Shown: positions 2,201 through 40,225 of the stretch, one piece after another
How the letters are laid out: each line of letters opens with the position of its first letter
Numbering within the stretch: the stretch's first letter is position 1
Source of the DNA: Enterococcus phage AllMyExes
Sequence record: PV544171.1
Length of the DNA: 64,000 nt
Strand: one strand, 5' to 3'
Position numbers and translations under genes: made by a program
The notes under the pieces: generated by a model
Database searches by the model: none
Seen by the model: the letters and a program-made list of their open reading frames with translations, nothing else
What the model was told of the DNA's origin: nothing

Positions 2201-2218
2201 CTTTGTCTCCTCTTTAAT

Positions 2219-2468: not shown

Positions 2469-2481
2469 CTATTGTACCTCC

Positions 2482-3114: not shown

Positions 3115-3341
3115 CTAATCTTCCTCCTATTGAATCATAATACATATAAAAAGTAGTATCAGCAAAACAACACCGCCCCACCCCGCATTTACATATGCCG
3201 TATAGAAAATGTATATAAGATACGTTACTGCTATAATAGTTAATACTACGAGTATCGTGTTAAAGAGCTTCTCTAAATCAATCATTATACAACCTCCTAG
3301 ACCTCACAAGTATAGGTCTGGTTCTTCTTATACTCTTCCTA

Positions 3342-3539
3342 CTATTTATACCCAAAGAACTTTAAGTAATTTTCTGCTTCTTTTTCTAAGTGTTCGTTTA
3401 GTTCATCTAAGGTAACAACTTTCCCACAGTCCTCACAAGTATAGGTCTGGCTCTTCTTATCTTCTAGCAGTTCACCATCACATACAAGGTTGATACAGTG
3501 GGTTGTCCAACTCCCTACATCGTCCGGTAAGTGCCCCAT
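3342..3539 (-). CDS. Small zinc-ribbon-like protein (C..C....CEDCGK).
   Basis: Cys pairs; overlapping ATG/stop with the upstream gene. Confidence 0.5.
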   Translation of the reverse strand: MGHLPDDVGSWTTHCINLVCDGELLEDKKSQTYTCEDCGKVVTLDELNEHLEKEAENYLKFFGYK

Positions 3540-4054
3540 TATACGTCACCTACTTTTACAGCAAATGCCATGAATCGTTCATCCATTTTGCGGATTTCTT
3601 TCTCTGTAAAGGTAGGGATGTCTTCTAGGTAGTTTGTAAAGTCAGGAGACCCTAATCGGTCGATATAGCTGTATCCCCAACCATCTTTATCTTTTGCGAT
3701 AATGATGTAGTACTCGTCTTCTTCCTCTTCTACCGTATGACCCAGTACCCATGCTTTGGCAAGTTTCTCATGGTTTTCTGGGTTATTAGCTAACCAAAAG
3801 TACATCTTACTAGGGTAGCTTCCTTTGTCAATCATGTTAATAAACGTTAAGTTCTCTTCTTTGCACTTGTCAATATATTCCCCTACTTTATAAGGAATAA
3901 CAACTTTTTCAGGCTCATCTAAACCATATGCTAAGGAGACTGCTTTTGCTATCCCTGCATTGTAGCCTAGAGCATGAGGGTTCAATGTACCGTCACACTC
4001 TACTTGAGTAAAAACCTCGTCACTTAGTCTACTAATAAATTCATTCTTGTTCAT
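3539..4054 (-). CDS. Hypothetical protein, paralog family A (copy 1 of 3).
   Basis: Shares AIAKAVSLAYGLDEPEKVVIP...EIRKMDERFMAFAV with the proteins at 4328..4870 and 17448..17885. Confidence 0.6.
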   Translation of the reverse strand: MNKNEFISRLSDEVFTQVECDGTLNPHALGYNAGIAKAVSLAYGLDEPEKVVIPYKVGEYIDKCKEENLTFINMIDKGSYPSKMYFWLANNPENHEKLAKAWVLGHTVEEEEDEYYIIIAKDKDGWGYSYIDRLGSPDFTNYLEDIPTFTEKEIRKMDERFMAFAVKVGDV

Positions 4055-4066
4055 TTAGTTCCCTCC

Positions 4067-4315
4067 TTAAAACTCAAGGCTGTTTTCAATAAGTTCTGAT
4101 AGTCGGAGCATAACCTCGTGAGGTAATTCTAATTTTGTACTCTCCTGTGAGTCTGCAGAACTAACTTCCAAAGTATATTTTACTTCTGTTTTCTCATTTA
4201 CACGAGAAGCTTTCTTCTCAACACATACTTTATAAAGTGCTGAGTTATTGACTGCGATAATTTTTTCTTGTATATTTACACTAGTATTGCTATCATAAGT
4301 AATTTCATAGCCCAT
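4067..4315 (-). CDS. Hypothetical protein.
   Basis: 82-aa ORF. Confidence 0.45.
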   Translation of the reverse strand: MGYEITYDSNTSVNIQEKIIAVNNSALYKVCVEKKASRVNEKTEVKYTLEVSSADSQESTKLELPHEVMLRLSELIENSLEF

Positions 4316-4327
4316 TATAAAACCCTC

Positions 4328-4870
4328 CTATTTGTATACTGGTACAGCAAAAGCCCAGTATCTTTCATCAATTTCTTTTATTTCTTGTTCAGTAAATTTG
4401 TTCTTACCCATATTAGGCTTATTTGAGAAGTATACTTCATTATTGTGGGATGTGTCAACCCAAAGATAACAATCTTCTCCTTTATTACCAAGACCAGTAA
4501 ACACGACATGGTAAAGTGGTTCTTTCTCCACCTCGTACCCATCTTTCATTCGTATTAAAGTTTCAATAGGGTTATTCTTACTTTGGTCTAACCAACAATC
4601 GAACTCTGAATCATGTGGGTAGCTATTACCATCTAACATTCTAATTTGTGTAAAAATAGCTAGGTCTAACGCATGTTTATTTTCCTCGTACCATTCCGCA
4701 ACAAACTTTGGCACAATTACTTTTTTAGGTTCGTCTAGTTTCTTTGCTAGCAAAATAGCCGCCTTGATTGCCTCATTGTAGCACTGGCTCCGATTTGATA
4801 ACCCTTGAATGACTGGGACGTGGCTAAACTTTAACTCTTCTAATTTTTTAATCAATTCTTGTTTATTCAT
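4328..4870 (-). CDS. Hypothetical protein, paralog family A (copy 2).
   Basis: AIKAAILLAKKLDEPKKVIVP...EIKEIDERYWAFAV. Confidence 0.6.
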   Translation of the reverse strand: MNKQELIKKLEELKFSHVPVIQGLSNRSQCYNEAIKAAILLAKKLDEPKKVIVPKFVAEWYEENKHALDLAIFTQIRMLDGNSYPHDSEFDCWLDQSKNNPIETLIRMKDGYEVEKEPLYHVVFTGLGNKGEDCYLWVDTSHNNEVYFSNKPNMGKNKFTEQEIKEIDERYWAFAVPVYK

Positions 4871-5071
4871 TTAGTTTCCTTCCTTTCTTTCAATAGCCCA
4901 CTGGCTGAATGCTTGTAAGACTTGCAACTGCGCAATTTCTGTCATGTATCTATAATTTTTATAAACAGGGCTATTCCGATAATCTGGTTTTATAGAATTG
5001 GCTCTCAGTCTCCAAAATAGCTCTATAGGTTCAATATCTGTTAACGTATATTTTTCTTTTAACCAACCCAA
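4871..5071 (-). CDS. Hypothetical protein; start uncertain (TTG, no clear RBS).
   Basis: C-terminal motif AQLQVLQAFSQW is shared with the protein at 5256..5615. Confidence 0.4.
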   Translation of the reverse strand: MGWLKEKYTLTDIEPIELFWRLRANSIKPDYRNSPVYKNYRYMTEIAQLQVLQAFSQWAIERKEGN

Positions 5072-5087
5072 AACAATTTGTTGATTC

Positions 5088-5263
5088 TAACTTAGCTCTA
5101 CTTGGTCTACCTTATCATCAGTGTATTTGAACCAGATTTTCTCATATGTTGTTTGTCCGCCTGTGATTGTTACAAATTCGGCGCTTGGTTGCTCATTTTG
5201 AAATTTTTCTAGTTGTTCTTCGTAATGTATATCCCCAACATCAAATTCTTTAAATTTAATCAT
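5088..5263 (-). CDS. Small hypothetical protein, about 58 aa, not in the ORF track.
   Basis: ATG at 5263 preceded by AGGGAGAG; overlaps the stop of the upstream gene. Confidence 0.4.
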
Positions 5264-5615
5264 TGTACTCTCCCTGTTCTAAAAACCAATCAGTAAATGC
5301 TTGAATAACTTGCGCTTCCTCCGTTACTGATAAAGAGTAATATGCCTCTTCTGTTTTAGGGTCTTCATAGGTCTCCCCAATACGTTCGAGCGCCTCAAAT
5401 AAGGAATCTTTACTACAGTAACCTACTTTTAACCATTCAAATACCTGTTTCTGATTTTTATTCAGTTCTGGCTTTTTAACTGCCTCTACTGCAGTCTTAT
5501 ACGCTATTTTTAAAAGGTCTCCTTCAAAACTATTAGGGAAATTAATTTCACCATTTGCTTCCATATACATATAACAAACTCTATCAATTATTTCGTTATA
5601 TCTTTGTCTACTCAT
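5256..5615 (-). CDS. Hypothetical protein.
   Basis: 119 aa; motif AQVIQAFTDWF is paralogous to the protein at 4871..5071. Confidence 0.55.
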   Translation of the reverse strand: MSRQRYNEIIDRVCYMYMEANGEINFPNSFEGDLLKIAYKTAVEAVKKPELNKNQKQVFEWLKVGYCSKDSLFEALERIGETYEDPKTEEAYYSLSVTEEAQVIQAFTDWFLEQGEYND

Positions 5616-5776
5616 TCACTATCCCTCCTCGTCCTCTACGTCACCCCAACCAAAGCTACAGTAGGAAGAGAACACGTCTCTAGCTACTTCGTCTATCTCC
5701 TCATTCGTAGCATTATCGGGTACTTCTACTGTCTCTACTTCACCAATACCTGCCCAAGTTGTCTCAATATATACAT

Positions 5777-6319
5777 TTATTTTTCGCATAGTTTAATACC
5801 TAAGACTACATAGTCGTCTTTCTGTGCATAATCGGTGATATAAGTAACTTCTACTTTAATAAACTCTCCTGTATACGAACCACATGTGTACTCATTTAAT
5901 AAAAGAATATCTCCCACATGGTATTGTCTATCATTTTTACGTATTTCAAATAGTTTTCTACCTTCCTTAACTGCTTTAAAGTACGTAGGTGCAATCTTGA
6001 GGTTATGGGTAACTTCTAATTTACTAACTAAATCAAAAATGATAGTGTTTAATTCGTTACCCTCTACCTGATGATTCAATTTTTGTAAATTTATTGATAT
6101 TACAGTATGCCTACCTCCTCTACTCCCATAAAGGTTATTCTGTTGGTCTCTATATTCCTCTGAATCAATAACTAAGTTTCTTCTGTTATGCTTAGTAAGT
6201 CTTTCCTTCTCCGTCATTGCCTGTGCTAGTCCATTTATTGTTTTAGATACTTTTACTTCTCCATTTACAATAACTTGTACTAGGTATCTGTTGTCCTTTG
6301 TTGCAAACTTATTATCCAT
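5777..6319 (-). CDS. Two-domain protein with a C-terminal ASCH/PUA-like domain resembling DUF3850.
   Basis: C-terminus PTYFKAVKEGRKLFEIRKNDRQYHVGDILLLNEY...GEFIKVEVTYI matches the DUF3850/ASCH signature as I remember it (YFeav..G.KtFEIRkNDR.f.vGD.L.L.E). Confidence 0.45.
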   Translation of the reverse strand: MDNKFATKDNRYLVQVIVNGEVKVSKTINGLAQAMTEKERLTKHNRRNLVIDSEEYRDQQNNLYGSRGGRHTVISINLQKLNHQVEGNELNTIIFDLVSKLEVTHNLKIAPTYFKAVKEGRKLFEIRKNDRQYHVGDILLLNEYTCGSYTGEFIKVEVTYITDYAQKDDYVVLGIKLCEK

Positions 6320-6321
6320 AA

Positions 6322-6786
6322 TTAGTATCTCTCTTTCATAATTTTAATTGACCAGTTATCATTATTACTGAACACCCGCTCTAGGTCATTCAATGAGTTG
6401 GTATCTACAATTTCCTTTTTTAGTTTTCTATCTGAACTAATATTACCAAATCGTTTAAGGAATCTTTGTTTAAAGTGGGCATAACCCATATAGTCAAAGG
6501 TAATAACGTGTTCTTTACCAAATATACCCCGCTCTCTTAACTTAATCTCTACACTCTCATAAGAGCTATCTACTTTCATAAAATTATTTAGAAGAGTGTG
6601 CAAATCAATACAAATAGATGCCCCTGCACTACCGCCTATAAGTATATATTTAGGGCACTTTATATCGGGATAACAAGGGTCATCTAATTCATACCACATA
6701 TTATTTACGTCTACCCCATACCATACACTATTCACATCTACTGATACTCTTTCTGTCTTAAATGGTTTTATGCAAGTATACTTCAT
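6322..6786 (-). CDS. Hypothetical protein.
   Basis: 154-aa ORF. Confidence 0.5.
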   Translation of the reverse strand: MKYTCIKPFKTERVSVDVNSVWYGVDVNNMWYELDDPCYPDIKCPKYILIGGSAGASICIDLHTLLNNFMKVDSSYESVEIKLRERGIFGKEHVITFDYMGYAHFKQRFLKRFGNISSDRKLKKEIVDTNSLNDLERVFSNNDNWSIKIMKERY

Positions 6787-27617: not shown

Positions 27618-27689
27618 TGCTGATTGAGAGAGTCGAACTCCCATTCCCGGGTTACAAAACCGGAGTAATAGCCATTATACTAAATCAGC
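27618..27689 (-). tRNA. tRNA, probably Thr (anticodon TGT).
   Basis: Reverse complement folds as a cloverleaf: acceptor GCTGATT/AATCAGC, T-arm GGGAG-TTCGACT-CTCTC, anticodon loop TTTGTAA. Confidence 0.6.
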
Positions 27690-27714
27690 GTAACCCCTCA
27701 ATAGAGGGAGTTTC

Positions 27715-28806
27715 TTATACTAAATTACCATATCCGTAGGTATTTGTTTTAGCTTGTTTAAACATGATACTCTTGATAGCTAAGTCATTGTACTTTTCAT
27801 CGTCTTCGTCATCAAGGTACACATCAACATTAACGTTCTTACCTAAAATATCGATTGTTTCATCTTTACCTACTTGTAAGTCTTTACTGTTAAATGATAC
27901 ATCAAAATAGATGTCGTCTTCTTTTGTACGACTACCGAATGATACTCTATCTTCAAATAAATTTAAACTTCGAGAGTTAATTACAACAGGTTGTAGCCCA
28001 CCTTCAAATTGAATAGTAACTGTATAATACTGATTTTCAATATTAAGAATGTTCAAATCAGCAATAGCTTCACCAAATGAGATGCCAAAGCTTAATTCCA
28101 ACGCAATTGCTCGTAAGCAATCATAGTTTAACTTAATTCTACGGCTAAACTTAACAACACTGTCAATTTCCCCATAGTAAGCTTTGTCTAACTTATCTTG
28201 CAAGTAAGTACGAATTTCGTCTGCATCAGGGTAGTCGAAACGTAAATGGTAATGGAAACGTCCCGGACGATTAAGCATAAAGTCGTTTACACGATTTAAG
28301 TTATTAACAGTAAGTGCATAAATACGCTTGCGTTGTGATAACCCATCGAATAAGCTCAATAGTTTTTCTTGTGATTCACGACCGTCACGGTCATTGAATA
28401 CTTTTTCAAATTCATCGAACAAGATAAGAGACTCTTGGTCAATACTGTCAATAAATTCTGCGATACCCGGATAAGCTTCTGTAATTAAGATAACAGGCAT
28501 ACCCTCTTCAATAGCTCGTTGAGATAAGATTTGAGTAAATAGTGATTTACCAATCCCTTTATCCCCACTTAAAATAACCCCTAAACTACGATTGATTGTT
28601 TTAAATGTGTGTAGTACTTTCTCAATTTTAACTAAACGGTCACCATAAACTTTAGATTCTTTCAATTTAAAATCGTCTGTAACCGCCAATGAGAACCCAG
28701 ACATTGGGTTGAATCTAACTTTATAAGTTTGCGCAGGCAACTTATCATAAGTTTTCAGGTCGTTTGCATAAATCTCATAATTACTACCATAATTGATTAC
28801 TTTCAT
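27715..28806 (-). CDS. Classical AAA ATPase.
   Basis: Walker A GDKGIGKS, Walker B LILFDEFE, sensor-1 ALTVNN, second region of homology LNRPGRFHYHLRFDYPD. Confidence 0.65.
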   Translation of the reverse strand: MKVINYGSNYEIYANDLKTYDKLPAQTYKVRFNPMSGFSLAVTDDFKLKESKVYGDRLVKIEKVLHTFKTINRSLGVILSGDKGIGKSLFTQILSQRAIEEGMPVILITEAYPGIAEFIDSIDQESLILFDEFEKVFNDRDGRESQEKLLSLFDGLSQRKRIYALTVNNLNRVNDFMLNRPGRFHYHLRFDYPDADEIRTYLQDKLDKAYYGEIDSVVKFSRRIKLNYDCLRAIALELSFGISFGEAIADLNILNIENQYYTVTIQFEGGLQPVVINSRSLNLFEDRVSFGSRTKEDDIYFDVSFNSKDLQVGKDETIDILGKNVNVDVYLDDEDDEKYNDLAIKSIMFKQAKTNTYGYGNLV

Positions 28807-28842
28807 ATATTCTCTCCTTAATACTTTTTAATAAATTATAAA

Positions 28843-28924
28843 TGGAGAGTGATGGAGTCGCACCACCCGAGCCTAAGCAACAGATTTACAGTCTGCTCCG
28901 CTACTACTTACGGAATAACTCTCC
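28843..28924 (-). tRNA. tRNA-Tyr (GTA), type II with a long variable arm.
   Basis: Acceptor GGAGAGT/ACTCTCC, anticodon loop CTGTAAA, variable arm of about 13 nt. Confidence 0.6.
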
Positions 28925-29176
28925 TTGAATAACCAACCAGATAGGTACCTGACACACGGACAGCACCTGTGTCTCTCTGTTACTGGCTGATTAATTGTGT
29001 ATTTCGCATCACCTAATATAGTTATCAAGGTAGGACTTGACTATACTAGATTTAGCTAGGTTCTAACTATAATTTCCTATGATAGCTCCTACTACTAATC
29101 ATATTTATATACAGTTAAACTACACATAACTAAACCGATTACCTTGGTTCGCATGTTAAGAGGCGCAGGCAACCAA

Positions 29177-29250
29177 TGGACATTGCAGGTCTCGAACCTG
29201 CGACCGTTCGGTTATGAGCCGAATGCTCTGACCAACTGAGCTAAACGTCC
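29177..29250 (-). tRNA. tRNA-Met (CAT).
   Basis: GGACGTTTAGCTCAGTTGGTCAGAGC...TTCGG-CTCATAA-CCGAA...GGTTCGAGACC; perfect cloverleaf. Confidence 0.75.
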
Positions 29251-29308
29251 GTAGGGTAGTAGCAACAATTACAAATGCTACTCTCCTGATGATTATAAAC
29301 TTATCAAA

Positions 29309-29382
29309 TCGGAAAGACAGGACTTGAACCTGCGACATCAGACTCCCAAAGCCTGCACTCTACCAAGCTGAGCTACTTTCCG
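29309..29382 (-). tRNA. tRNA-Pro (TGG).
   Basis: CGGAAAGTAGCTCAGCTTGGTAGAGTG-CAGGC-TTTGGGA-GTCTG...GGTTCAAGTCC...CTTTCCG. Confidence 0.7.
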
Positions 29383-29524
29383 GGTTACCTGTTTAATTTG
29401 GTCTTTTAAACTACTACACACAGGTAAAGATAAACCCTCTGCCAAGGGGAGACTATCATCGAACCGTATGTAAGTTACGATGGGTAGTAGCCATATTATA
29501 TTAGGTTATTAGGAAGTTTACCTA

Positions 29525-29609
29525 TGCAGAAGGCGGGAGTCGAACCCACACGTCCATTACAGACCGATGTTTCTAAGACACCGTTGTCTACCAGTTCCAT
29601 CACTTCTGC
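29525..29609 (-). tRNA. tRNA-Leu (TAG), type II.
   Basis: 85 nt; anticodon arm GGTGT-CTTAGAA-ACATC; long variable arm; T-arm GTGGGTTCGACTCCCGC. Confidence 0.7.
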
Positions 29610-29767
29610 GGTTGTACTACCAAGGTTACCTCTAAAAGGCTAAACTCGTGTCTGGTAGGGAGCCATACCTTACATGGATTGCAAGGAACCTAACCTCAGT
29701 AGCACCTTTTACTATTAAGGGTTTCTGATTTAACGTTTTCCCTAGACCGTACCTTAACAGTAATACT

Positions 29768-29862
29768 GGTGAGAGGATTTGAACCCCTCTTACCTACAAG
29801 CCTCCGACAAGCGCTATGGGAAACAAGCGGTGCATTAACCATAACTATGCTAACCAGTACAC
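29768..29862 (-). tRNA. Anomalous tRNA-like element, about 95 nt, anticodon arm unresolved; possibly a pseudo-tRNA or type-II tRNA.
   Basis: Good T-arm (AGGGG-TTCAAAT-CCTCT), acceptor-like ACTGGTT/CACCAGT and D-arm (GCAT...GG...ATGC), but I could not fold the central 40 nt into a standard anticodon arm. It contains three GCTTGT repeats. Confidence 0.35.
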
Positions 29863-30331
29863 TACTGTTTTACGCAGTCCTCATACTAATAATTCATGGG
29901 GACTCAACCCCATTCAGGGAAGTGTTAGTCTATTTTTTGGTGAGAACTGGTTAACTCCATGTACGTCAAACATTCCCTAGACTACTCACTTACATTGTTA
30001 TTTAATGTCACATGACTTATGACAGCCGTACTCAAAAGTTTCAAGGACTTTTACCTCACTATCCACCGACAGTATGCTCGGCAACGTCTTTCTAATAATA
30101 AATTACCCATCACTGTTACAGTAACAGAACCATTGAATTAACGAGCAATATCAGTATTACTAAAAGTAGTCTGTCTGTGTGGTACAAGCACTAGCAGTAT
30201 TACAACCTATAGTATGTCTGTTTGTCAATCGTTAAATTCTTTTACAGGAGTACTTGTTAAACTTAGGGAGGTATAACAAGTATGTGCACATAACCCGAGT
30301 GCTACTCCCTAAAGTAGCCTATACGGGTTAA

Positions 30332-30405
30332 CGTAGATGGAGGGAATCGAACCCCCAACCGTCCGCTTAGAAGGCGGATGCTCTATCCGATTGAGCTACA
30401 CCTAC
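30332..30405 (-). tRNA. tRNA-Arg (TCT).
   Basis: GTAGGTGTAGCTCAATCGGATAGAGCA-TCCGC-CTTCTAA-GCGGA...GGGGGTTCGATTCCCTC. Confidence 0.75.
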
Positions 30406-30488
30406 AAATTATGGGGGTAATGAGCCCCCATAATAACTCATAGTAGTTTCATCTATCGAGGATTAAAATGAATATCTAACTTGAATAA

Positions 30489-30518
30489 AGTATAACACTA
30501 TTTACATAGCATGTCAAC
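30489..30518 (-). promoter_or_regulatory. Sigma-A-like promoter inside the tRNA island: TTGACA, 18-bp spacer, TATACT.
   Basis: Minus strand reads gtgTTGACAtgctatgtaaatagtgtTATACT, about 85 bp upstream of tRNA-Arg. Confidence 0.5.
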
Positions 30519-30538
30519 ACTTTTATTAAAATAAATTT

Positions 30539-30627
30539 CTATACCTCACTAATGCCAATGACTATACGTAAGGAGAGAACGTTGATGGCACTGGCTACTT
30601 AGTTGGCGCTAAGTTAGTGAGGTATAG
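30539..30627. repeat. Perfect 14-bp inverted repeat (ctatacctcactaa / ttagtgaggtatag) enclosing a 61-nt loop.
   Basis: Read directly; lies just upstream, in the minus direction, of the promoter at 30489-30518. Confidence 0.7.
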
Positions 30628-30890
30628 AAAGAGAACTACATTGACCGAATCGTATTATACAGCCTTAGTAGTTGTTAACAATGTTTGGAACTTAGTAGAT
30701 TACTGCAATAAGCTACCCCGAAGCATCGGGGTGGGACTGTGGTAAGCCCCAAACCCTTGGGTATGCTCCATCCTGCCTCCGGAGAAGTCAGGCTCAATTC
30801 TCATTAGTTAAAGGTTTACTAGTTAACGGTTAGCTGATTAGTCATACTACGTAAACTACTAGTAAAATATAGTTTTCCAATTAAGGCTAA

Positions 30891-30962
30891 CAATCGGTAG
30901 AGGATTTGAACCCCTATTATTGGTTTTGGAGACCAACGTGTTACCAGTTACACTAACCGACT
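30891..30962 (-). tRNA. tRNA-Trp (CCA).
   Basis: AGTCGGTTAGTGTAACTGGTAACAC-TTGGT-CTCCAAA-ACCAA...AGGGGTTCAAATCCTCT-ACCGATT. Confidence 0.7.
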
Positions 30963-31216
30963 ATGTAAAGAAGGAAAGCGAAGACCTTCTTTACAGTAAT
31001 TAAAAAAAAACAAACAAAAAAAATACAATCATGGAATCAAGGTGGGATGTAAGGAGATGCCATGTGTCCACTTACAGTGGAATAGGTAACTACAGATTTG
31101 CACTGTTTTACATCTTGTTTAATGGTTACCTGTTAATAGCTAACTTCCAGTGATAAGTCCTCTTATATGGTAGTTCATGTAGTATTTGTTTGACAATATG
31201 GTAGCTAGCTAAAATG

Positions 31217-31289
31217 ACGACAGTAACGGGACTCGAACCCGTGTGTTCCACGCTGACAACGTGTTGGGACAGCCTCTGCCCTATACTGC
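31217..31289 (-). tRNA. tRNA-Asp (GTC).
   Basis: GGCAGTATAGGGCAG...CACG-TTGTCAG-CGTG...ACGGGTTCGAGTCCCGT-TACTGTC. Confidence 0.65.
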
Positions 31290-31302
31290 CATTATTTATG
31301 CC

Positions 31303-31377: not shown

Positions 31378-32109
31378 TATATTTTTTATGAGCTTTTAAT
31401 AACTCAAAACTTAATATAATAGGGCTTTTACTCCTGCTTCATGCACACTCACTGCATTCGGTCACACACCCAGAGAGGCTGAACTATCGGGAGCTACCCA
31501 ATAGCTTCTCTCTGCTTTTAATGTATGGTCTAGCACGGTGGCTAACAACGTTCACCTAAACATTCAGCATTAAATAGTATTGTTATAAGTTCTTCTTATA
31601 TCATATATTTTGTAAGCTGACTTAGGCTACTTGTACCAAGGTCTCTTGTTAAACCCATATTTCTATGGTTCTCGTCAAAGGGAGTCTTTTGAGGTTTCTA
31701 AGGTCTGCCAAGTTTCTCACGCTTCCACCTAACTTAGATTCTTTTCCACAGGAACGTCTATTATATCCCCCAAGAGTCTTGTACCTTACAATCCATGTAC
31801 ACTCCACATAACGCTTAACTGATACTAGCTTTTACTAGTAGTTACTCTTATGTCACCATAAGACATACCTGCTACCTAAAACACTATCGCACTCTAGGCT
31901 ACATTCAGAATCACGCCACGTTATCCTAGCAAGCTGTTCAAACTTTCTGCACTAGGTTCTATTATATTAAGTTTTCAATTATCAAAAGCAGTTTTTCTTT
32001 ACTATTTAATAATAGCACAACCTCTATTATTTTGTCAACTACTTTTTTTAGAGAGGGTGCCCCTAATTTTATATAGGGGCAAGAGATATTAAACATAGCT
32101 GAGCTATGT

Positions 32110-34205: not shown

Positions 34206-34493
34206 GTGGGATGGGTGTCTATTACCAATAAAGACATTAAGGATAAACGTAGATATATTTTTAGTCAATCTAGTAAAACAACAACTATAAAAAGAGGGGA
34301 CAAACGCATAAGTAGTGCAACAAGAATATGTGCAGTTTGTGGAAGACCGCTATCTAAGCTCGTATTAAGAACAGGCGTACCAACAGTAGTAGTAGACCAT
34401 ATTAGCTGTAAGATTTCAGACATTGTTAGACTAAATGTCTGTGAGGATATAAGGTCTTGTTATGCGTATTCTAGTAAGAAAGGGGAAAGCTAG
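34206..34493 (+). CDS. Hypothetical protein (C..C......H.SC).
   Basis: GGAGGTGGG RBS. Confidence 0.5.
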   Translation: MGWVSITNKDIKDKRRYIFSQSSKTTTIKRGDKRISSATRICAVCGRPLSKLVLRTGVPTVVVDHISCKISDIVRLNVCEDIRSCYAYSSKKGES

Positions 34494-34496
34494 CTA

Positions 34497-34925
34497 ATGG
34501 GTATGGCAGATAGACTTAAAGATAATGCAAAACAAAAAAAGTTAGAAAGAACACCAGAGCAACAACTAAGAGACACATTTAATCAAGCTTCAATAAAGCT
34601 TATCAATCAATTTATGGCTAACGTTACATCAGGTGCTATAGAAGTTGATGATATTGCAGATTTAACAAGGCTATTTCAGATTTATTTACAGGTTAATAAT
34701 ATAAATGATGGAATGCAAGAAGGTACAGGAACTCTACCTGCACTTACATCTGAGCATAAAGACATCATATCTGAAAAGGTTAGCACAGAAAAGATTATTA
34801 AGGACGGTGAAGAAGAGGAGCTAATTTCTCTTGATGAGTTAGCCAGTCTTCCAGATGACCAACTTGAGGAAGTCTTAGTTAACAGAGAGCTACAGATGAA
34901 CAGAGAGAACGAGGTGACCTTCTAA
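34497..34925 (+). CDS. Hypothetical acidic protein; a candidate small terminase subunit by position only.
   Basis: 142 aa directly upstream of terL exon 1. Confidence 0.3.
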   Translation: MGMADRLKDNAKQKKLERTPEQQLRDTFNQASIKLINQFMANVTSGAIEVDDIADLTRLFQIYLQVNNINDGMQEGTGTLPALTSEHKDIISEKVSTEKIIKDGEEEELISLDELASLPDDQLEEVLVNRELQMNRENEVTF

Positions 34926-35290
34926 TGACGACAAAAGCACAACATATAGCTAAAATGGCTAAAGAGATGTATGGTACAGATAAAATTACAACGGAGCAGT
35001 TAGCTTATATAACAGATATGCTGACCCCATCAACGTACCTATTGAGAAATCACTCTGTGCGTAATCACCCAATAACTTTTATTATATCAGGAAGGGATGC
35101 AACAAAAGCACAGGCACATCGACCTTGGCAACCAAAGATAATAAATGACCAACATAGGGATAAAGCAATAATAAAGAGTCGTCAGCTCGGGCTAAGTGAA
35201 ATGGGGGTTGGCTCTATGCTACAATTCGCAGATACACATAGTTATGATGCTGTTAAATGCTTGTATACATTCCCTAAACTAATTGGGGCT
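34925..35290 (+). CDS. terL: Large terminase subunit, exon 1 (N-terminal ATPase part with a deviant Walker A).
   Basis: KSRQLGLSEMG resembles the lambda-gpA-type deviant Walker A (KSARVGYS) and the T4 gp17 SRQLGKT region. The ORF ends exactly where the conserved intron sequence starts. Confidence 0.6.
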
Positions 35291-36567
35291 TAGGTCAGTA
35301 ATGACCTTTGAAAAATTCTGTTAAACGGGCAAAGCTGAAAGTACACAAAAATAACCAACCTTACTCATTTGTAAGGAGGAATAAGCTGATAAGAGAGCCT
35401 AAGTCCTTAAAGGATAGAGGTAATCCCGTGCTAAATCAAGCGTAAGCTTGTAAATGCCTAACGACTAAAATTTATAGTTTACTTGACCAAGATAGTAAGC
35501 TATAATAAGAGAACTTGCAATATAAACTCTGATATTAAAAATAAGGAGGTGAGTCATTGACTAAGAGGAAAACTAATGAAGAATACTTAAAAGAAGTAAA
35601 TGAATTAACTAAAGGAGAATACGTACCAATAACACCTTATATAAACTCCGCTACAAAATTGAAAATGGAGCATAAAGCATGTGGTACCATTTGGGAAGTT
35701 AAACCAAATAATTTTAAAACAGGGACACGATGTCCGAAGTGTGCTGAGCTAGCTAAAACAAAGACTACTGAAAAGTTTAGGGAAGAAGTAAAGAAATTAA
35801 CTAAAGGAACCTTAGAACTAAAGGGTGAATATTTTGGCTGTGATACACATACGGAAGTTCTTTGTACGAAGCATAAACTAACAATTTCAGTGAGACCTAC
35901 AAGCATAATTAGAGGTAAAAAAGTATGTCCTAAATGTAATGCAGAGTACCTTAGTACGTGTCAGAGAAAAGACCAAAAGTTATTTGAGAAACAATTAGCA
36001 CACAAACATAATGGTCGAATAATCTCGTTAGAACCATATGTAAATACACATACGAAAATAAAATTTAAATGCACAGCTTGCTGTAGTGAGTTCAAGTCTG
36101 AGCCAAACTCAGTATTGAGAATAAGTGGTTGCCCTTGGTGCAAACAGTCTAAAGGAGAGCTACTTATAGCAGACGTACTAACTAAATTAGGAATTGACTT
36201 TGAAACACAGAAAACTTTCCCAGATTGTACTTTCAAAAGAGAGTTACCATATGACTTTTATATTGAGGAGTATGGAGTGCTGATAGAGTTTGATGGTGAA
36301 CAGCACTACAGACCTATTGAGTTTTTTGGAGGAAAAACCGCATTTGAATACCAAAAAATAAGAGATAACATAAAAAACGATTTTGCTAAGAAAAATGGTT
36401 TTACCTTATTAAGAATACGAGGCAATTTGTCAGAGGATTGCGTTCGTAAAAAGATAGAAAACATATTGCAAGAAGTAAAGCAGAAACCCTATCAGATAGG
36501 GTATGATATAGTCTAGTCCGACTGCTAAGAGCAGTGTTAAAGTATAGTGAAAACTACGGTAGATTCG
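35291..36567 (+). mobile_element. Group I intron 1 in terL, about 1.28 kb, carrying a homing endonuclease ORF. Boundaries are approximate.
   Basis: It shares three near-identical blocks with the second insertion: ctgttaaacgggca; a 48-nt identical core aatcccgtgctaaatcaagcgtaagcttgtaaatgcctaacgactaaa (35422-35469); and a 3' block gatatagtctagtccgactgc.aagagcagt...cggtag.tcg ending in G. The flanking exons keep reading frame. Confidence 0.6.
35557..36516 (+). CDS. Intron-encoded putative homing endonuclease: three N-terminal CxxC zinc-ribbon repeats plus a C-terminal Vsr/DUF559-like PD-(D/E)xK nuclease domain.
   Basis: Repeats of the form T.EEF..EV..LT.GEY...GEY.....K...H..CG..W.V.P..F..G..CP.C, three copies. 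C-terminus GELLIADVLTKLGIDFETQKTFP...YDFYIEEYGVLIEFDGEQHY...GFTLLRI. Paralogous to the ORF at 37524..38462. Confidence 0.6.
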   Translation: MTKRKTNEEYLKEVNELTKGEYVPITPYINSATKLKMEHKACGTIWEVKPNNFKTGTRCPKCAELAKTKTTEKFREEVKKLTKGTLELKGEYFGCDTHTEVLCTKHKLTISVRPTSIIRGKKVCPKCNAEYLSTCQRKDQKLFEKQLAHKHNGRIISLEPYVNTHTKIKFKCTACCSEFKSEPNSVLRISGCPWCKQSKGELLIADVLTKLGIDFETQKTFPDCTFKRELPYDFYIEEYGVLIEFDGEQHYRPIEFFGGKTAFEYQKIRDNIKNDFAKKNGFTLLRIRGNLSEDCVRKKIENILQEVKQKPYQIGYDIV

Positions 36568-37272
36568 ACAAATGAGCAAATGACTAAATTTGTACAGACA
36601 AGGTTAGACCCTGTTTTACAGAATGGGTACTACAGCACAATTGTAGACCAAGAAGTTAACTCATTAAAAGCTAAAAAAATAAGAAATAGCTTTTTGTATT
36701 TTCGTTCAAGCTCAAAACCGGGCGCTGTAGAGGGTGTCGATATTGACTATCTATCTATGGACGAGTATGACCGTGTACCTGCATTAGCAGAGGCTTCTGC
36801 GTTGGAGTCCATGTCTTCCTCACCTTATAAGATAGTTAACAGATGGAGCACCCCAAGTGCCCCAGATATGGGGATACATGGGCTCTTTAAAGGGTCAGAC
36901 CAACATTGGTATTTACATAAATGTGAGAAATGTAATTATTATAACGAAATGAGTTATGATGCATATACACCAGAGGCTCCTGTAGAGAGTAGAGGTAACA
37001 TTCTTTGTGTTAACCCAAAAGGGGTCGATGTTGTTGCTAAAACAGTAGTTGACGGCTCATTCCAGTTTGTTTGTCAAAAGTGTGGAGAACCGTTAGACAG
37101 ATGGTACAACGGTGTATGGGTACCTAAATACCCTGATAGAACAAAAAATGGTCTAGGTACTAGAGGATATATGATTTCCCAAATGAACGCAGTATGGGTA
37201 ACTGCCGACCAGTTAAAGACTAAAGAACTTCAATCATTATCTAAACAAGCCTTTTATAACTATACTCTGGGT
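36568..37272 (+). CDS. terL: Large terminase subunit, exon 2 (Walker B region and linker).
   Basis: IRNSFLYF...VDIDYLSMDEYDRVP matches the T4 gp17 RGNSFAMIYIDECAFIP Walker B region. The in-frame ORF opens just after the conserved intron 3' end. Confidence 0.55.
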
Positions 37273-38557
37273 GAATAACGCCCCTTCAACTGGAAACAGT
37301 TGTCGAAAACTCTGTTAAACGGGCATAGGAAAATAACCAATATCCTGATAAGAGACCCTGCCTCCTGAAAAGGAAAGAGGGAATCCCGTGCTAAATCAAG
37401 CGTAAGCTTGTAAATGCCTAACGACTAAATTTCTAGGTAGCTAACCAAATGGGGTTAGTGAGAACTAGATAAGAACTACAAAACATTCTAAGTATGCTAT
37501 TATAATTACTGAGAGGTGATTAGATGGCAAAGAAACAAACCACTGAAACATTTACAGCTCGGGTAGCTGAACTTACTAACAATGAATATACAGTTGTTGG
37601 TGAATATGTAAATAACAAAACAAAGATAGCTATAACTCACACAACGTGTAACACCACTTACCTAGTTAAACCAAAAGGTTTTTTGGATGGTAACCGATGC
37701 CCTCATTGTAGAAATAAGCTACGAGGAGCTAAGCAAAAGACACAAGAGCAGTTCGCAGAAGAGGTTACAAACTTAACGGATAATGAATACATCGTTGTAG
37801 GAGAGTATACAGGAGCTACTAACAAAGTAGCAATCCAACATAGAATATGTGGTAACTCATGGAGAGTTTCTCCGAATAGTTTTTTATCCCGAGGAACACG
37901 ATGCCCTACGTGCGTAAGGAATACGACAGCACAGGAGCAGAGGTACTCTACAGAGCAGTTTATCAAAAAATTAGAGGAACGCTTTCCGAAAGAATACACA
38001 TTATTATCTGAGTACATGGGTAGCAAGAAAAAAGTTTTGGTACGTCACAACCGCTGTGGTAATGAGTGGGAAATCAAAGCAAGTCATTTGCTACACCATA
38101 ATATGTGTCCTAGGTGTAAGTCATCGAGAGGTGAAGCATTGATTCGGAAGTATCTAACAAATATAGGTTTGGAATTTACAGAACAGCAAACCTTTCCTAA
38201 TTTAGAACTTAAAAAACCATTATCCTATGACTTTTATATACCTAGTCAGCAGTTGCTGATTGAATATCAAGGTATACAACACTATGAACCAATAGCTCAC
38301 TTCGGTGGAGCTGAACGGTTTAAACTTCAACAGGAAAGCGATAAAAGAAAACGAAAATACGCAAGTGAGCATGGGTTGCTATTAGTGGAAGTACCTTACT
38401 CACTCGATACAATAGAAAAGGTATCGGCATACTTAGAAAAGGAAATCAAATTTGTAGTGTAAAGCAGAGCAACCTAAACCAAAAAGTAGGTTGATGATAT
38501 AGTCTAGTCCGACTGCCAAGAGCAGTAACAAAATACTACGAAAGTAGCGGTAGCTCG
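37273..38557 (+). mobile_element. Group I intron 2 in terL, about 1.29 kb, carrying a homing endonuclease ORF. Boundaries are approximate.
   Basis: Same conserved 5', core (37382-37429) and 3' (38496-38557) blocks as intron 1. Confidence 0.6.
37524..38462 (+). CDS. Intron-encoded putative homing endonuclease, paralog of the ORF at 35557..36516.
   Basis: Same tri-repeat zinc-ribbon plus DUF559/Vsr-like architecture (GEALIRKYLTNIGLEFTEQQTFP...YDFYIPSQQLLIEYQGIQHY...GLLLVEV). Confidence 0.6.
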   Translation: MAKKQTTETFTARVAELTNNEYTVVGEYVNNKTKIAITHTTCNTTYLVKPKGFLDGNRCPHCRNKLRGAKQKTQEQFAEEVTNLTDNEYIVVGEYTGATNKVAIQHRICGNSWRVSPNSFLSRGTRCPTCVRNTTAQEQRYSTEQFIKKLEERFPKEYTLLSEYMGSKKKVLVRHNRCGNEWEIKASHLLHHNMCPRCKSSRGEALIRKYLTNIGLEFTEQQTFPNLELKKPLSYDFYIPSQQLLIEYQGIQHYEPIAHFGGAERFKLQQESDKRKRKYASEHGLLLVEVPYSLDTIEKVSAYLEKEIKFVV

Positions 38558-39337
38558 TATCCTTACGCAGACTTGAAATTAACTGTTAACGACTCTGACG
38601 TTGATAGCCATAAGAGAAACTATTTAGTAGAACCTGCTAAAGACAGAGGTGACTATAAATTTATATCTGTTGGTATTGACTGGGGTAACAGACATTGGGT
38701 ATCTATACATGGTGTTAAAACAAATGGTACGGTAGATTTGATAAAACTTTTTTCTGTGGGTAAGTCCAACCCGCTAGACCCTAATGCAATAGATGTAGAC
38801 ATACAGTCTATAAAATTACAGCTAGCTCCTTACAATCCAGATATAATCGTAGCTGACGTAGGGGACTCAGGGGATAAAGTTGCTAAACTTATGCAAATTT
38901 ATGGAAAAGAACGAGTTTTTGGGTGTGTCTACCCATCAACCCCTAAATCTACTGGTAACCTAGTACCTACTTGGAGCCCACAAGCAAATAAAGTATCCGC
39001 TGACAAGTTAATGCAGAATAAACGTTACATTAACAAGATGAAAGAAGGAGAAATAGGTTACTACTCAAAACCAGATACAGAGCTTAATTTATATAAAGAG
39101 CACTGGAAGAATGTTGTTATACGTGATATTGAGGACGAAAAGACATCGACAGGTTTTAGACAAATTATCGGCAGAAAAGGTGATGACCACTACTCACAAG
39201 CAAGCGTTTATTCCATGTTAGGGTATGAGTACCTAATGAATGTATTTACAGGAGTAAAAGAGTATGGATTTGACTCTGATTGGGTGTCAACTCAATTAGC
39301 ACCTACGAAACCTGATATATTTACAGAATTTGTATAG
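38558..39337 (+). CDS. terL: Large terminase subunit, exon 3 (RNase-H-like nuclease domain).
   Basis: YKFISVGIDWGNRHWVSIHGV resembles the T4 gp17 [21 protein letters not shown] nuclease motif I, with downstream acidic motifs. Confidence 0.55.
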   Translation, partial: YPYADLKLTVNDSDVDSHKRNYLVEPAKDRGDYKFISVGIDWGNRHWVSIHGVKTNGTVDLIKLFSVGKSNPLDPNAIDVDIQSIKLQLAPYNPDIIVADVGDSGDKVAKLMQIYGKERVFGCVYPSTPKSTGNLVPTWSPQANKVSADKLMQNKRYINKMKEGEIGYYSKPDTELNLYKEHWKNVVIRDIEDEKTSTGFRQIIGRKGDDHYSQASVYSMLGYEYLMNVFTGVKEYGFDSDWVSTQLAPTKPDIFTEFV

Positions 39338-39403
39338 GTAGATTGCCTTATTTAGTTTTAGTCAAGCTGAATAAGGCATTTTGTATTGTTTGATATATAT
39401 TTT

Positions 39404-39414
39404 TGTGGTATAAT
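39404..39414 (+). promoter_or_regulatory. Extended -10 promoter element TGTGGTATAAT.
   Basis: Lies 22 bp upstream of the start at 39437; the motif recurs at 43257 and 55145. Confidence 0.45.
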
Positions 39415-39436
39415 AAATATAGTTAGGGGGATAGTT

Positions 39437-40225
39437 ATGGTAGACAACAATGTAAAAATAAGTAAAAGTACAATTGAAGGACTAATAAATAAGTCTTTAA
39501 GTTATGAGTACGTTATAAAAAATAACGAATTGCTGACAAACGAATATCAACATATTGTAAAAGCGTATGGGTTTGATAATTTTTATGACATGTATCTATA
39601 TGCAGATAGCTGTGATTCTAAAGATATGTATTTAGTAAAAGGTGGTCAAAAAGACTTGTCTAAGCTGAAACCCGTTAAAAGAAAAGTTGTTAGAAATGGT
39701 AAAACTATGACTACAACTATTTATGAAGATACAGGCAGTTCAGACAGTAATAACAGTAACCCTTTAGACAAAGAGAGTAAAAAGAAAAAAGAGTTAGAAC
39801 CAGTTAATGCTAAGGAACTACGTAAGGTCAGCTTAGGTAGTGATGAAGAAGAGAAGTTAGACCCTAAAAAGATAGCAAAATTGCTAGCAGACACTAAAAA
39901 ATTTGGAAATAATTTTGATACGCAGTGTACTGATTATCTTATTCTTGAACAAGACTCTGTTACACGAGGAGTGGTAGGGTTTACTAGAGAAGGTTCTTAT
40001 TTAAAAATGTCTTTCTCAATGTCAGATGAGGCTGTTGAAGGTATGAAGATGTTAGCTTTTTCACAGCTCACATTAAAGGCTTGGAAATTGGGTCTAGGGG
40101 CTAAGATAAGCACAGATAATGCACCTGATGTAGAGGAACTAATTAGCTTATATGGATACAAAAGAAATAATACAGAGTATATTGTGTCAATGAGCTCACT
40201 GCGTAGTCTTCTAGGGGAGCCTTAG
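39437..40225 (+). CDS. Hypothetical protein; start placed at MVDNNVKI, which has a GGGGGATAG RBS.
   Basis: 262-aa ORF. Confidence 0.5.
   Translation: MVDNNVKISKSTIEGLINKSLSYEYVIKNNELLTNEYQHIVKAYGFDNFYDMYLYADSCDSKDMYLVKGGQKDLSKLKPVKRKVVRNGKTMTTTIYEDTGSSDSNNSNPLDKESKKKKELEPVNAKELRKVSLGSDEEEKLDPKKIAKLLADTKKFGNNFDTQCTDYLILEQDSVTRGVVGFTREGSYLKMSFSMSDEAVEGMKMLAFSQLTLKAWKLGLGAKISTDNAPDVEELISLYGYKRNNTEYIVSMSSLRSLLGEP

What the first reader, a model, noticed from the sequence alone, without database searches (positions are those of the whole stretch)
34925..39337. Large terminase gene split into three exons by two related group I introns
Three adjacent ORFs together make one terminase: 34925-35293 (ATPase Walker A region), 36547-37278 (Walker B region) and 38573-39337 (RNase-H-like nuclease). 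Each exon ORF ends or begins exactly at blocks that are near-identical between the two intervening segments. These blocks are a 48-nt identical core at 35422-35469 and 37382-37429, the 5' 'ctgttaaacgggca' block, and the 3' 'gatatagtctagtccgactgc.aagagcagt...cggtag.tcg' block ending in G. Each intervening segment carries a free-standing endonuclease ORF. Frame is preserved across the proposed junctions 35290|36568 and 37272|38558. Introns in a packaging ATPase gene are uncommon. Twin introns imply an intron-homing history in this lineage.
Basis: partly seen in the sequence, partly recalled or inferred. Interest (0 to 1): 0.7.

Follow-up and report, generated by a model that had tools for sequence, protein, structure and literature searches.

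The report
Two group I introns splitting terminase
The DNA-packaging enzyme gene of this Enterococcus phage is interrupted by two related self-splicing (group I) introns, each carrying its own homing-endonuclease gene; this is real but is a known habit of this phage family.

Summary
The finding is essentially right, with three corrections. The window comes from a phiEF24C-like Enterococcus phage (Herelleviridae, Kochikohdavirus). Its large terminase gene (TerL) is cut into three exons: 34925-35275, 36568-37272 and 38558-39337. Joining them gives a 611-aa protein identical, 611/611, to the uninterrupted TerL of Enterococcus phage Sw5. Both intervening sequences have group I anatomy: a P1 helix with a U.G pair at the 5' splice site, a terminal G, and the P3-P8 core with the P3/P7 pseudoknot. 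Across 16 related introns, 97% of cells pair and 26 of 43 pairs show compensatory changes. ORF-less relatives at both sites match Rfam Intron_gpI full-length (E 1e-4 to 3e-6, below the gathering score).

Corrections:
- Intron 1 starts at 35276, not 35291.
- The endonuclease ORFs are intron-embedded, not free-standing. They are Vsr-like (EDxHD-type) nucleases, not HNH.
- TerL introns are not rare in Herelleviridae. One relative carries five intron-core-bearing insertions in this gene.

Splicing itself was not observed. Novelty is low: a new combination of known elements.

The parts
34925..35275 (+). TerL exon 1 (117 codons; deviant Walker A KSRQLGLS at residues 84-91). Ends in U35275.
   Evidence: Matches phrog_675 positions 8-94. 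Intron-less alleles end this block at ...TTYCCN|. The spliced product is identical to Sw5 TerL.
35276..36567 (+). Intron 1, group I (IA-like), 1292 nt. Helices: P1 35272-35277/35283-35288 (U35275.G35285); P2 35293-35306 (GUAA loop); P3 35316-35321/36480-36485; P4 35325-35329/35425-35429; P7 35463-35467/36509-36513; P8 36486-36502. The terminal G is G36567.
   Evidence: Folds; covariation. The same-site ORF-less intron of EF24C matches Rfam RF00028 at 36.6 bits, E 2.9e-6. The intron is 100% identical to ON113168.
35557..36516 (+). Intron-1 homing endonuclease gene (319 aa; TTG start after AAGGAGGTGA). Three zinc-ribbon repeats followed by a C-terminal Vsr-like nuclease. The last 12 codons overlap P3'/P8/J8-7/P7'.
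36568..37272 (+). TerL exon 2 (235 codons; Walker B LSMDEY; WSTPS). Ends in U37272.
   Evidence: Matches phrog_675 positions 94-325. Junctions defined by intron-less alleles.
37273..38557 (+). Intron 2, group I (IA-like), 1285 nt. Helices: P1 37269-37273/37279-37283 (U37272.G37280); P2 37287-37302 (GAAA loop); P3 37310-37315/38464-38469; P7 5' strand within 37418-37428; P8 38470-38493; J8/7-P7' 38496-38504. The terminal G is G38557.
   Evidence: The same-site ORF-less intron in L007 matches RF00028 at 32.3 bits, E 1.3e-4.
37524..38462 (+). Intron-2 homing endonuclease gene (312 aa; ATG after GAGAGGTGA). A paralogue of the intron-1 enzyme. Its stop codon lies immediately 5' of P3'.
   Evidence: 34% identity to HEG1. 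Pfam CapR x2 plus DUF4379. phrog_559 at 2.9e-91.
38558..39337 (+). TerL exon 3 (259 codons plus stop; nuclease half).
   Evidence: Matches phrog_675 positions 326-573. Junction.
35422..35469 (+). 48-nt catalytic-core block (P4', P6, P6a, J6/7, P7 5' strand), identical to 37382-37429.
39344..39378 (+). Terminator-like hairpin plus T-run directly after the TerL stop codon.
   Evidence: a consensus scan only.

Best explanation
The window carries the large terminase gene of a phiEF24C-like Enterococcus myophage. Two paralogous mobile group I introns of the phage IA type interrupt it, at 35276-36567 and 37273-38557.

Proposed mechanism:
- After transcription, each intron folds into the group I core. 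P1 presents the last exon bases, with a U.G wobble at the cleavage site. P3-P8 together with the P3/P7 pseudoknot form the guanosine-binding active site.
- The intron excises itself by two transesterifications that end at its terminal G.
- This joins 35275 to 36568 and 37272 to 38558, so one 611-aa TerL is translated.

Each intron carries an endonuclease gene with its own ribosome-binding site, placed in the peripheral region between P7.1 and P3'. The protein has three zinc-ribbon DNA-binding repeats followed by a Vsr-like (EDxHD-type) nuclease domain. By analogy with I-Bth0305I, it would cut intron-less TerL alleles during mixed infection. Repair copied from the intron-bearing genome would then spread the intron together with short flanking exon tracts (homing).

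What is shown: exon colinearity, exact junctions, ribozyme secondary structure with covariation, the nuclease fold, and presence/absence polymorphism between phages.
What is inferred: actual splicing, autocatalysis, endonuclease activity and its target.
For: 1. One gene.
- The three pieces match phrog_675 at positions 8-94, 94-325 and 326-573.
- Pfam GpA_ATPase aligns as a single stretch (residues 75-252) across junction 1.
- The spliced protein equals Sw5 TerL CAI9187509 at 611 of 611 residues.

2. Exact junctions from natural intron-less alleles.
- Sw5 lacks both introns, EFLK1 lacks intron 1, and EF24C lacks intron 2.
- Seven loci have an uninterrupted site 1 and three have an uninterrupted site 2.

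3. Ribozyme.
- P1 has U.G at both 5' splice sites and both introns end in G.
- The R element (CUAACGACUAAA) and S element (GAUAUAGUC) are present.
- On 16 mini-introns, the P3-P8 core with P7 written as a pseudoknot pairs in 97.1% of cells, against 43% or less when the partner is slid.
- 26 of 43 pairs show changes on both sides, and 0 of 500 shuffles reach the observed values.
- Between the two window introns, P3 (UUCUGU/GCAGAA versus CUCUGU/GCAGAG), P5 and P8 differ by compensatory changes. So do P2 and P9b.

4. Independent model.
- ORF-less relatives match Rfam RF00028 over the full model 1-253.
- Scores are 36.6 bits, E 2.9e-6 (EF24C, site 1) and 32.3 bits, E 1.3e-4 (L007, site 2).
- Other TerL introns in related loci reach 47.6 bits.

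5. No independent expression of exons 2 and 3.
- There is no Shine-Dalgarno sequence before GTG36547 or TTG38573.
- In-frame stops follow each 5' splice site after 5 codons and 1 codon.

6. Homing.
- Intron-plus and intron-minus alleles differ only at synonymous positions flanking each site. The -1 base is U only in intron-plus alleles.
- D233, E244, G247 and H250 are invariant in 59 homologues.

7. Precedent.
- In Bastillevirinae, phrog_559 (VSR superfamily) ORFs sit in group I introns of phrog_675 TerL genes.
- TerL splicing was shown there in vitro and in vivo (PMC11878797).
Against: - No RNA data are available, so splicing is inferred.
- Rfam gives no group I hit in the window itself at either threshold. 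The roughly 1-kb ORF separates the two halves of the core, and the tool cannot scan ORF-deleted constructs.
- Even the ORF-less relatives stay below the RF00028 gathering score of 50 bits.
- No convincing P10 pairing was found for intron 1 by inspection.
- The endonucleases have no sequence-level match to Vsr or I-Bth0305I in the PDB. The Pfam DUF559 match is sub-threshold (18.2 against 20.6 bits).
- Some TerL introns of related phages did not self-splice in vitro (PMC11878797). Autocatalysis is therefore not guaranteed.
Confidence: 0.9

Rival explanations
1. One reading: same introns, but exon 1 runs to 35290, so the product carries five extra residues (KLIGA) before TNEQ.
For: The frame is preserved and base 35290 is also a U.
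Against: - Seven intron-less alleles lack these 15 nt.
- Phrog_675 has no positions for the extra residues.
- The P1 helix with its U.G pair sits at 35272-35288. The Rfam alignment of the EF24C intron places P1 there too.
- Only the 35275 junction gives 611/611 identity to Sw5 TerL.
Confidence: 0.03
2. No splicing. Endonuclease gene insertions broke the gene, and TerL works either as separately translated fragments or only through its largest fragment. This is how the iF6 genome paper read its own split TerL.
For: - PMC10054541 interprets the iF6 split this way.
- Precedents exist in other phages for genes split by free-standing endonucleases whose fragments reassemble (general knowledge).
Against: - A complete, covarying group I core brackets each ORF.
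- The splice-site hallmarks sit exactly at the allele-defined junctions.
- Exons 2 and 3 have no ribosome-binding site at a usable start.
- The Walker A and Walker B motifs would end up on different polypeptides.
- Related TerL introns are experimentally spliced (PMC11878797).
Confidence: 0.04
3. They are genuine group I introns that are removed in vivo but are not autocatalytic on their own. They would need a phage or host factor, or their own endonuclease acting as a maturase.
For: - Several Bastillevirinae introns spliced in vivo but not in vitro (PMC11878797).
- The large ORF insert and the overlap of the intron-1 ORF with P3'/P8/P7' could slow folding.
- P10 is weak.
Against: - The core is complete and canonical.
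- GNRA loops are present on P2, P5b, P6a and P9b.
- The SIOphi TerL introns did self-splice in vitro.
Confidence: 0.2
4. The intervening sequences are inteins or group II introns.
For: None beyond the fact that they interrupt a conserved gene.
Against: - In-frame stops occur 5 codons and 1 codon after the exon ends.
- The ORFs are in no continuous frame with the exons.
- There is no group II Rfam hit and no reverse-transcriptase domain.
Confidence: 0.005

Closest known systems
Group I introns with phrog_559 (VSR-superfamily) ORFs in TerL (phrog_675) genes of Bastillevirinae phages such as SIOphi (PMC11878797)
   Same: - The host gene family, the intron class (IA-like) and the endonuclease PHROG are the same.
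- Two or three introns per TerL gene are seen there as well.
- The ORF loops out of the ribozyme, and Rfam gives only partial or sub-threshold matches.
- The phage family is the same (Herelleviridae).
   Different: - The subfamily differs (Brockvirinae/Kochikohdavirus, Enterococcus host).
- Splicing was not tested here.
- Whether the insertion sites are homologous was not compared.
TerL alleles of other Kochikohdavirus phages (EF24C, EFLK1, A155, vB_OCPT_Car, iF6, KEN11, Sw5)
   Same: - Intron 1 is 100% identical in vB_OCPT_Car and 99.9% in A155.
- EFLK1 carries intron 2; its TerL block including that intron is 98.5% identical to the window.
- The exons are 96.5-99% identical.
   Different: - No record in the phage collection covers 80% or more of 34400-39900.
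- A155 has only intron 1 and EFLK1 only intron 2.
- EF24C has an ORF-less chimeric intron at site 1, and KEN11 has a different intron near 35125.
- Car has five intron-core-bearing insertions; Sw5 has none.
- The sampled records annotate the pieces as separate terminase CDSs or hypothetical proteins.
I-Bth0305I, prototype of the EDxHD (Vsr-like) homing endonuclease family, from the recA group I intron of Bacillus phage 0305phi8-36 (PMC3239194; PDB 3r3p)
   Same: - It is encoded in a phage group I intron.
- It has the same order of domains: an N-terminal DNA-binding region followed by a C-terminal Vsr-fold nuclease.
   Different: - The N-terminal region here is three treble-clef zinc-ribbon repeats (CapR/DUF4379), not NUMOD/HTH motifs.
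- There is no detectable sequence similarity.
- The ORF sits between P7.1 and P3' rather than in P5.
- The target gene differs.
Classical phage IA2 group I introns (T4 td/nrdB/sunY, SPO1 DNA polymerase, Twort orf142/nrdE/TerL)
   Same: - The core is the same, including the extra P7.1/P7.2 region between P7 and P3'.
- The endonuclease ORF is looped out of the ribozyme, and a stop codon follows the 5' splice site closely.
- The introns lie in conserved DNA-metabolism or packaging genes.
   Different: - The endonuclease family differs (those carry GIY-YIG or HNH enzymes).
- Subgroup assignment here rests on anatomy only. GISSD subgroup models were not available.

Membership tests
Group I intron (Rfam RF00028) | P1 helix pairing the 5' exon end with an internal guide sequence, with a U.G wobble at the cleavage site. 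| tested here: met
   Intron 1: CCCU35275|AA pairs with UUGGGG (35283-35288). Intron 2: GGGU37272|G pairs with CGCCC (37279-37283). Both come from MFE folds and direct reading, and both sit exactly at the allele-defined junctions.
Group I intron (Rfam RF00028) | Terminal guanosine (omega-G) at the 3' end of the intron. | tested here: met
   G36567 and G38557 immediately precede the exon sequence defined by intron-less alleles.
Group I intron (Rfam RF00028) | Conserved core P3-P4-P5-P6-P7-P8 with the P3/P7 pseudoknot topology, supported by covariation. | tested here: met
   97.1% of 666 cells are paired, 26 of 43 pairs change on both sides, 0 of 500 shuffles reach the observed values, and slid controls give 43% or less. 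P4 and P7 are invariant and so carry no covariation information.
Group I intron (Rfam RF00028) | Conserved R and S elements (J6/7-P7 ...ACGACUAAA and J8/7-P7' GAUAUAGUC). | tested here: met
   Both are present in both introns. They align to the RF00028 consensus AGACUA / AAGAUAUAGUC in the ORF-less relatives.
Group I intron (Rfam RF00028) | Score at or above the Rfam gathering threshold (50 bits). | tested here: not met
   The window gives no hit at the gathering or the E<=10 threshold, because the ORF of about 1 kb splits the core. ORF-less relatives give 24.7-47.6 bits over the full model, with E down to 3.4e-9. This is the known weakness of this model for ORF-bearing phage IA introns (PMC11878797).
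Group I intron (Rfam RF00028) | GTP-dependent self-splicing. | not testable with these tools
   This needs in vitro transcription and splicing, or RNA-seq.
Subgroup IA | Extra helices P7.1/P7.2 between P7 and P3'. | tested here: met
   A stable hairpin directly follows P7 in both introns (35472-35505 and 37432-37469), with different sequences. In EF24C a second short hairpin (CCUCUUAAGAGG) replaces the ORF region. Assignment to IA1, IA2 or IA3 was not tested.
EDxHD / Vsr-like homing endonucleases (I-Bth0305I) | Vsr-type nuclease fold in the C-terminal domain. | tested here: met
   [not shown]
EDxHD / Vsr-like homing endonucleases (I-Bth0305I) | Conserved catalytic E, D, H and D residues. | tested here: inconclusive
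   D233, E244, G247 and H250 are invariant, and D270 and K273 nearly so, in 59 homologues. Their residue-by-residue equivalence to the Vsr/I-Bth0305I motif was not established.
EDxHD / Vsr-like homing endonucleases (I-Bth0305I) | Sequence-level family membership (profile match). | tested here: not met
   No PDB sequence hit with a single sequence or a profile. Pfam DUF559 scores 18.2 bits against a 20.6 cutoff. No NCBIfam match.
EDxHD / Vsr-like homing endonucleases (I-Bth0305I) | N-terminal NUMOD/HTH DNA-binding region. | tested here: not met
   The N-terminal region is three helix-plus-zinc-ribbon repeats with CxxC pairs. Pfam finds CapR and DUF4379, and the model shows the three repeats.
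HNH endonuclease (the label of phrog_559 and of RefSeq for this ORF) | beta-beta-alpha-metal HNH catalytic motif. | tested here: not met
   There is no Pfam HNH match. The best fold matches of the model's nuclease domain are Vsr-type nucleases, and no HNH structure is among the listed fold hits. The HNH label appears to be a misnomer.
Large terminase (TerL, phrog_675 / GpA_ATPase) | A single colinear ATPase-plus-nuclease polypeptide. | tested here: met
   The PDB sequence search found nothing, so the nuclease fold of exon 3 was not independently verified.

The most novel reading that the evidence does not exclude
The two introns share an identical 48-nt P4'-P6-P7 block and a 97%-identical J8/7-P7'-P9a block. 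Exon 2 is exactly 705 nt (235 codons). The 5' half of intron 1 could therefore pair with the 3' half of intron 2, so that the 35275 splice site is joined directly to 38558. That would skip exon 2 and give an in-frame 376-aa product: the N-terminal 117 residues fused to the nuclease half, without Walker B. Exon skipping of this kind was the dominant in vitro product for the SIOphi TerL (PMC11878797). If it occurs in vivo here, it would be alternative splicing in a phage packaging gene, with possible regulatory or dominant-negative consequences.
Probability: 0.08. Interest if true: 0.55.

Novelty: new member of a known kind. Interest (0 to 1): 0.25.

Why it matters
The value is mostly practical. 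TerL of phiEF24C-like Enterococcus phages, which are widely used as therapy candidates, is deposited as two or three 'terminase' fragments plus 'HNH endonuclease' or 'hypothetical protein' entries. At least one genome paper concluded that only the largest fragment is functional (PMC10054541).

This analysis supplies three things:
- exact splice junctions;
- a covariation-supported secondary structure;
- the correct nuclease family (Vsr-like, not HNH).

With these, TerL can be annotated as one joined CDS and used properly in phylogeny and in typing of packaging mechanisms. The genus also shows that TerL is a hotspot with at least six intron insertion sites. The introns appear to exchange parts with one another, which makes it a convenient natural system for studying homing and intron recombination. 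It does not change current understanding of group I introns.

Tried and rejected
- Rfam on the window, at the gathering threshold and at E<=10 over 34800-39500, found no group I hit. The ORF insert explains this. The tool does not accept ORF-deleted constructs, so ORF-less natural relatives were used instead.
- Rfam on the vB_OCPT_Car locus found nothing at E<=0.1. Its first intron turned out to lack the 3' half of the core.
- The first count of structure pairs used a single bracket type, so P3 and P7 were mis-nested. It was repeated with P7 as a pseudoknot bracket.
- Extra GATATAGTC copies at 14272 and 14490 were checked as possible further introns. They lie on the + strand inside minus-strand ORFs and have no R element nearby. 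They were rejected as chance.
- A sigma-70-like promoter in front of the intron-1 ORF (TTTACT-17-TATAAT, 35478-35506) was considered. The scan finds no more sites than the shuffles do, so nothing is claimed.
- P10 pairing for intron 1 was looked for by eye, and nothing convincing was found.

Full report
**What is there**

The window is 36% G+C. Its region 34400-39900 is 97-98% identical, piecewise, to phiEF24C-like Enterococcus myophages (Herelleviridae, Brockvirinae, Kochikohdavirus). They match a single large-terminase profile, phrog_675, colinearly and without overlap at positions 8-94, 94-325 and 326-573. Pfam GpA_ATPase aligns as one stretch (residues 75-252) across the first junction of the joined protein. 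The shared sequence blocks are real. The 48-nt core at 35422-35469 and 37382-37429 is 100% identical, and the J8/7-P7'-P9a block matches at 32 of 33 positions.

**Where the junctions are**

Related phages provide natural intron-less alleles.
- Sw5 has an uninterrupted 611-aa TerL.
- EFLK1 lacks the first insert.
- EF24C lacks the second insert and has an ORF-less version of the first.

Alignment places the breaks at 35275|36568 and 37272|38558. Joining the exons there gives a protein identical to Sw5 TerL at all 611 residues. That is intron read-through up to the stop at 35291-35293, and it is absent from seven intron-less alleles and from the terminase profile. The second junction was correct.

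**Are they group I introns?**

Rfam finds nothing in the window itself. In each case about 1 kb of ORF separates the 5' half of the core from the 3' half. I therefore used three other lines of evidence.

1. ORF-less natural relatives.
- The site-1 intron of EF24C matches RF00028 at 36.6 bits, E 2.9e-6.
- The site-2 intron of IMG/VR locus L007 matches at 32.3 bits, E 1.3e-4.
- Other TerL introns in related loci reach 47.6 bits.
- All matches span model positions 1-253, and all are below the 50-bit gathering score.

2. Direct anatomy.
- P1 is CCCU|AA...UUGGGG in intron 1 and GGGU|G...CGCCC in intron 2. In both, the splice-site U forms a U.G pair.
- P2 hairpins carry GNRA loops and have different sequences in the two introns.
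- P3, P4, P5/P5a/P5b, P6/P6a, P7, a P7.1 hairpin, P8 and a branched P9 are all present. Both introns end in G.
- The extra P7.1 hairpin between P7 and P3' marks subgroup IA, the usual phage type.

3. Covariation.
- I built 16 distinct mini-introns with the variable P7.1-ORF region removed, taken from the window and from related loci.
- The P3-P8 structure, with P7 written as a pseudoknot, pairs in 97.1% of cells. Sliding the 3' partner gives 43% or less.
- 26 of 43 pairs have changes on both sides, and none of 500 shuffles reaches any observed measure.
- P4 and P7 never vary, so they say nothing either way.
- The two window introns differ from each other by compensatory changes in P3, P5 and P8 and in P2 and P9b.

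Further points argue against separate translation of the fragments. Exons 2 and 3 have no Shine-Dalgarno sequence before any usable start codon. In-frame stops follow the 5' splice sites after 5 codons and 1 codon.

**The intron ORFs**

Both ORFs have good ribosome-binding sites (AAGGAGGTGA-N6-TTG and GAGAGGTGA-N5-ATG). The two proteins are 34% identical. They match phrog_559, which PHROGs labels 'HNH endonuclease', and Pfam CapR and DUF4379 (treble-clef zinc finger). The intron-1 protein also has a sub-threshold DUF559 match. Sequence searches of the PDB found nothing.

A structure predicted from 59 homologues (pLDDT 93) shows three helix-plus-zinc-ribbon repeats followed by an alpha/beta domain. 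That domain matches:

D233, E244, G247 and H250 are invariant. These are therefore Vsr-fold (EDxHD-type) homing endonucleases with a different, zinc-ribbon DNA-binding region. They are not HNH enzymes, and they are intron-embedded rather than free-standing. The intron-1 ORF runs through P3', P8 and J8/7 and stops at the TAG inside GAUAUAGUCUAG. The intron-2 ORF stops just before P3'.

**Homing history**

Intron content at these sites varies among nearly identical phages. Intron-plus and intron-minus alleles differ only at synonymous positions clustered around each site:
- Site 1: TGC TTG ... TTC CCT|ACA (intron-plus) against TGT CTT ... TTT CCA|ACG (intron-minus).
- Site 2: CTG GGT|TAT ... TAC (intron-plus) against CTT GGA|TAC ... 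TAT (intron-minus).

The -1 U needed for P1 is present only in intron-plus alleles. This pattern fits co-conversion during homing, P1 compatibility, or target-site divergence. The data do not separate these possibilities.

The two introns are a mosaic. Identity is 100% in the P4'-P6-P7 block and 97% in J8/7-P9a, but only 52-69% elsewhere. The EF24C site-1 intron combines intron-1-like P1, P2 and P9b with intron-2-like P5 and P8. This suggests recombination between intron copies.

**Comparison with what is known**

- Group I introns in TerL of Herelleviridae are documented for Twort (cited in PMC6409932).
- They are documented in detail for Bastillevirinae, where phrog_559 ORFs with a VSR signature sit in introns of phrog_675 TerL genes. 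There, 5 of 52 genomes have split TerL, some with two or three introns, and splicing was shown in vitro and in vivo (PMC11878797).
- Intron 1 is already in GenBank at 100% identity (vB_OCPT_Car). Intron 2 is present in EFLK1 and KEN11, whose TerL blocks including it are about 98% identical to the window.
- Some records call the ORF 'VSR endonuclease' or 'group I intron-associated VSR homing endonuclease'.
- No record in the phage collection has this window's exact combination of both ORF-bearing introns.
- The one Kochikohdavirus genome paper I found that discusses its split TerL treats the split as gene disruption (PMC10054541).

This is therefore a new member, and a new combination, of a known kind.

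**Limits**

- Splicing, autocatalysis, endonuclease activity and endonuclease target are all inferred.
- Rfam membership at the curated threshold is not met.
- Subgroup assignment within IA was not tested.
- The RNase-H-like nature of exon 3 rests only on the terminase profile.

Noticed in passing
window 31404-31980 (-), with tRNAs at 27618-31290 (-): A full-length ROOL RNA (RF03087, 265 bits, E 1.6e-59) lies next to a cluster of six tRNA genes, upstream of the packaging module.
   Followed up: no
L039 (ON113168.1, vB_OCPT_Car) 1066-6268: Relative to the window, its TerL carries five intervening segments bearing this family's intron core, at window-equivalent positions about 35196, 35275, 36758, 37272 and 38692. 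The first (L039 about 1067-1283) has P1 through P7.1 but lacks P3', P8, P7' and P9. It runs straight into ...AACG|TAAGTGAG. It is either a crippled intron or an assembly collapse between repeated intron cores. Rfam finds nothing in this locus.
   Followed up: partly
L003 (NC_009904, EF24C) 1176-1477: The ORF-less intron at site 1 is chimeric. P1, P2 and P9b resemble window intron 1, while P5 and P8 resemble window intron 2 (94-95% identity to 37306-37475 and 38459-38535). This suggests recombination between the two introns.
   Followed up: partly
L002 (PP582184, KEN11) 1026-2334; window-equivalent site about 35125: A third kind of intron from the same core family sits at another exon-1 site. 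It has a different P9 domain (CCCCTAATAAATATCGGGAAACCGAGGG) and a 321-aa paralogous endonuclease. Together with the Car sites, this makes at least six TerL insertion sites in the genus.
   Followed up: partly
window 36480-36516: The last 12 codons of the intron-1 endonuclease (KQKPYQIGYDIV*) are encoded by the ribozyme elements P3', P8, J8/7 and P7'. The conserved GAUAUAGUCUAG is read as D-I-V-stop. Two other family members (L023, L026) end the same way.
   Followed up: partly
window 37497-37527: The MFE fold of the pre-ORF region of intron 2 buries the Shine-Dalgarno sequence and the ATG of the endonuclease gene in a 13-bp hairpin. This could limit endonuclease translation. It is a single-sequence prediction only.
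   Followed up: no
[not shown]
   Followed up: yes
L031 (IMGVR_UViG_3300044557_000281) 4166-6768: Three ORF-less group I matches lie within 2.6 kb of a related TerL (41.9, 37.4 and 32.7 bits). One of them (6503-6768) has a clearly different core from the family studied here.
   Followed up: no
window 39344-39378 (+): A 15-bp hairpin followed by a T-run lies seven bases after the TerL stop codon. It is a likely transcription terminator or RNA-stabilising element.
   Followed up: no
window 35334-35421: Intron 1 has a 34-nt expansion in P5 relative to intron 2, including the hairpin CCTTAC-TCATTT-GTAAGG. The same expansion is present in L007, L032 and L026.
   Followed up: no
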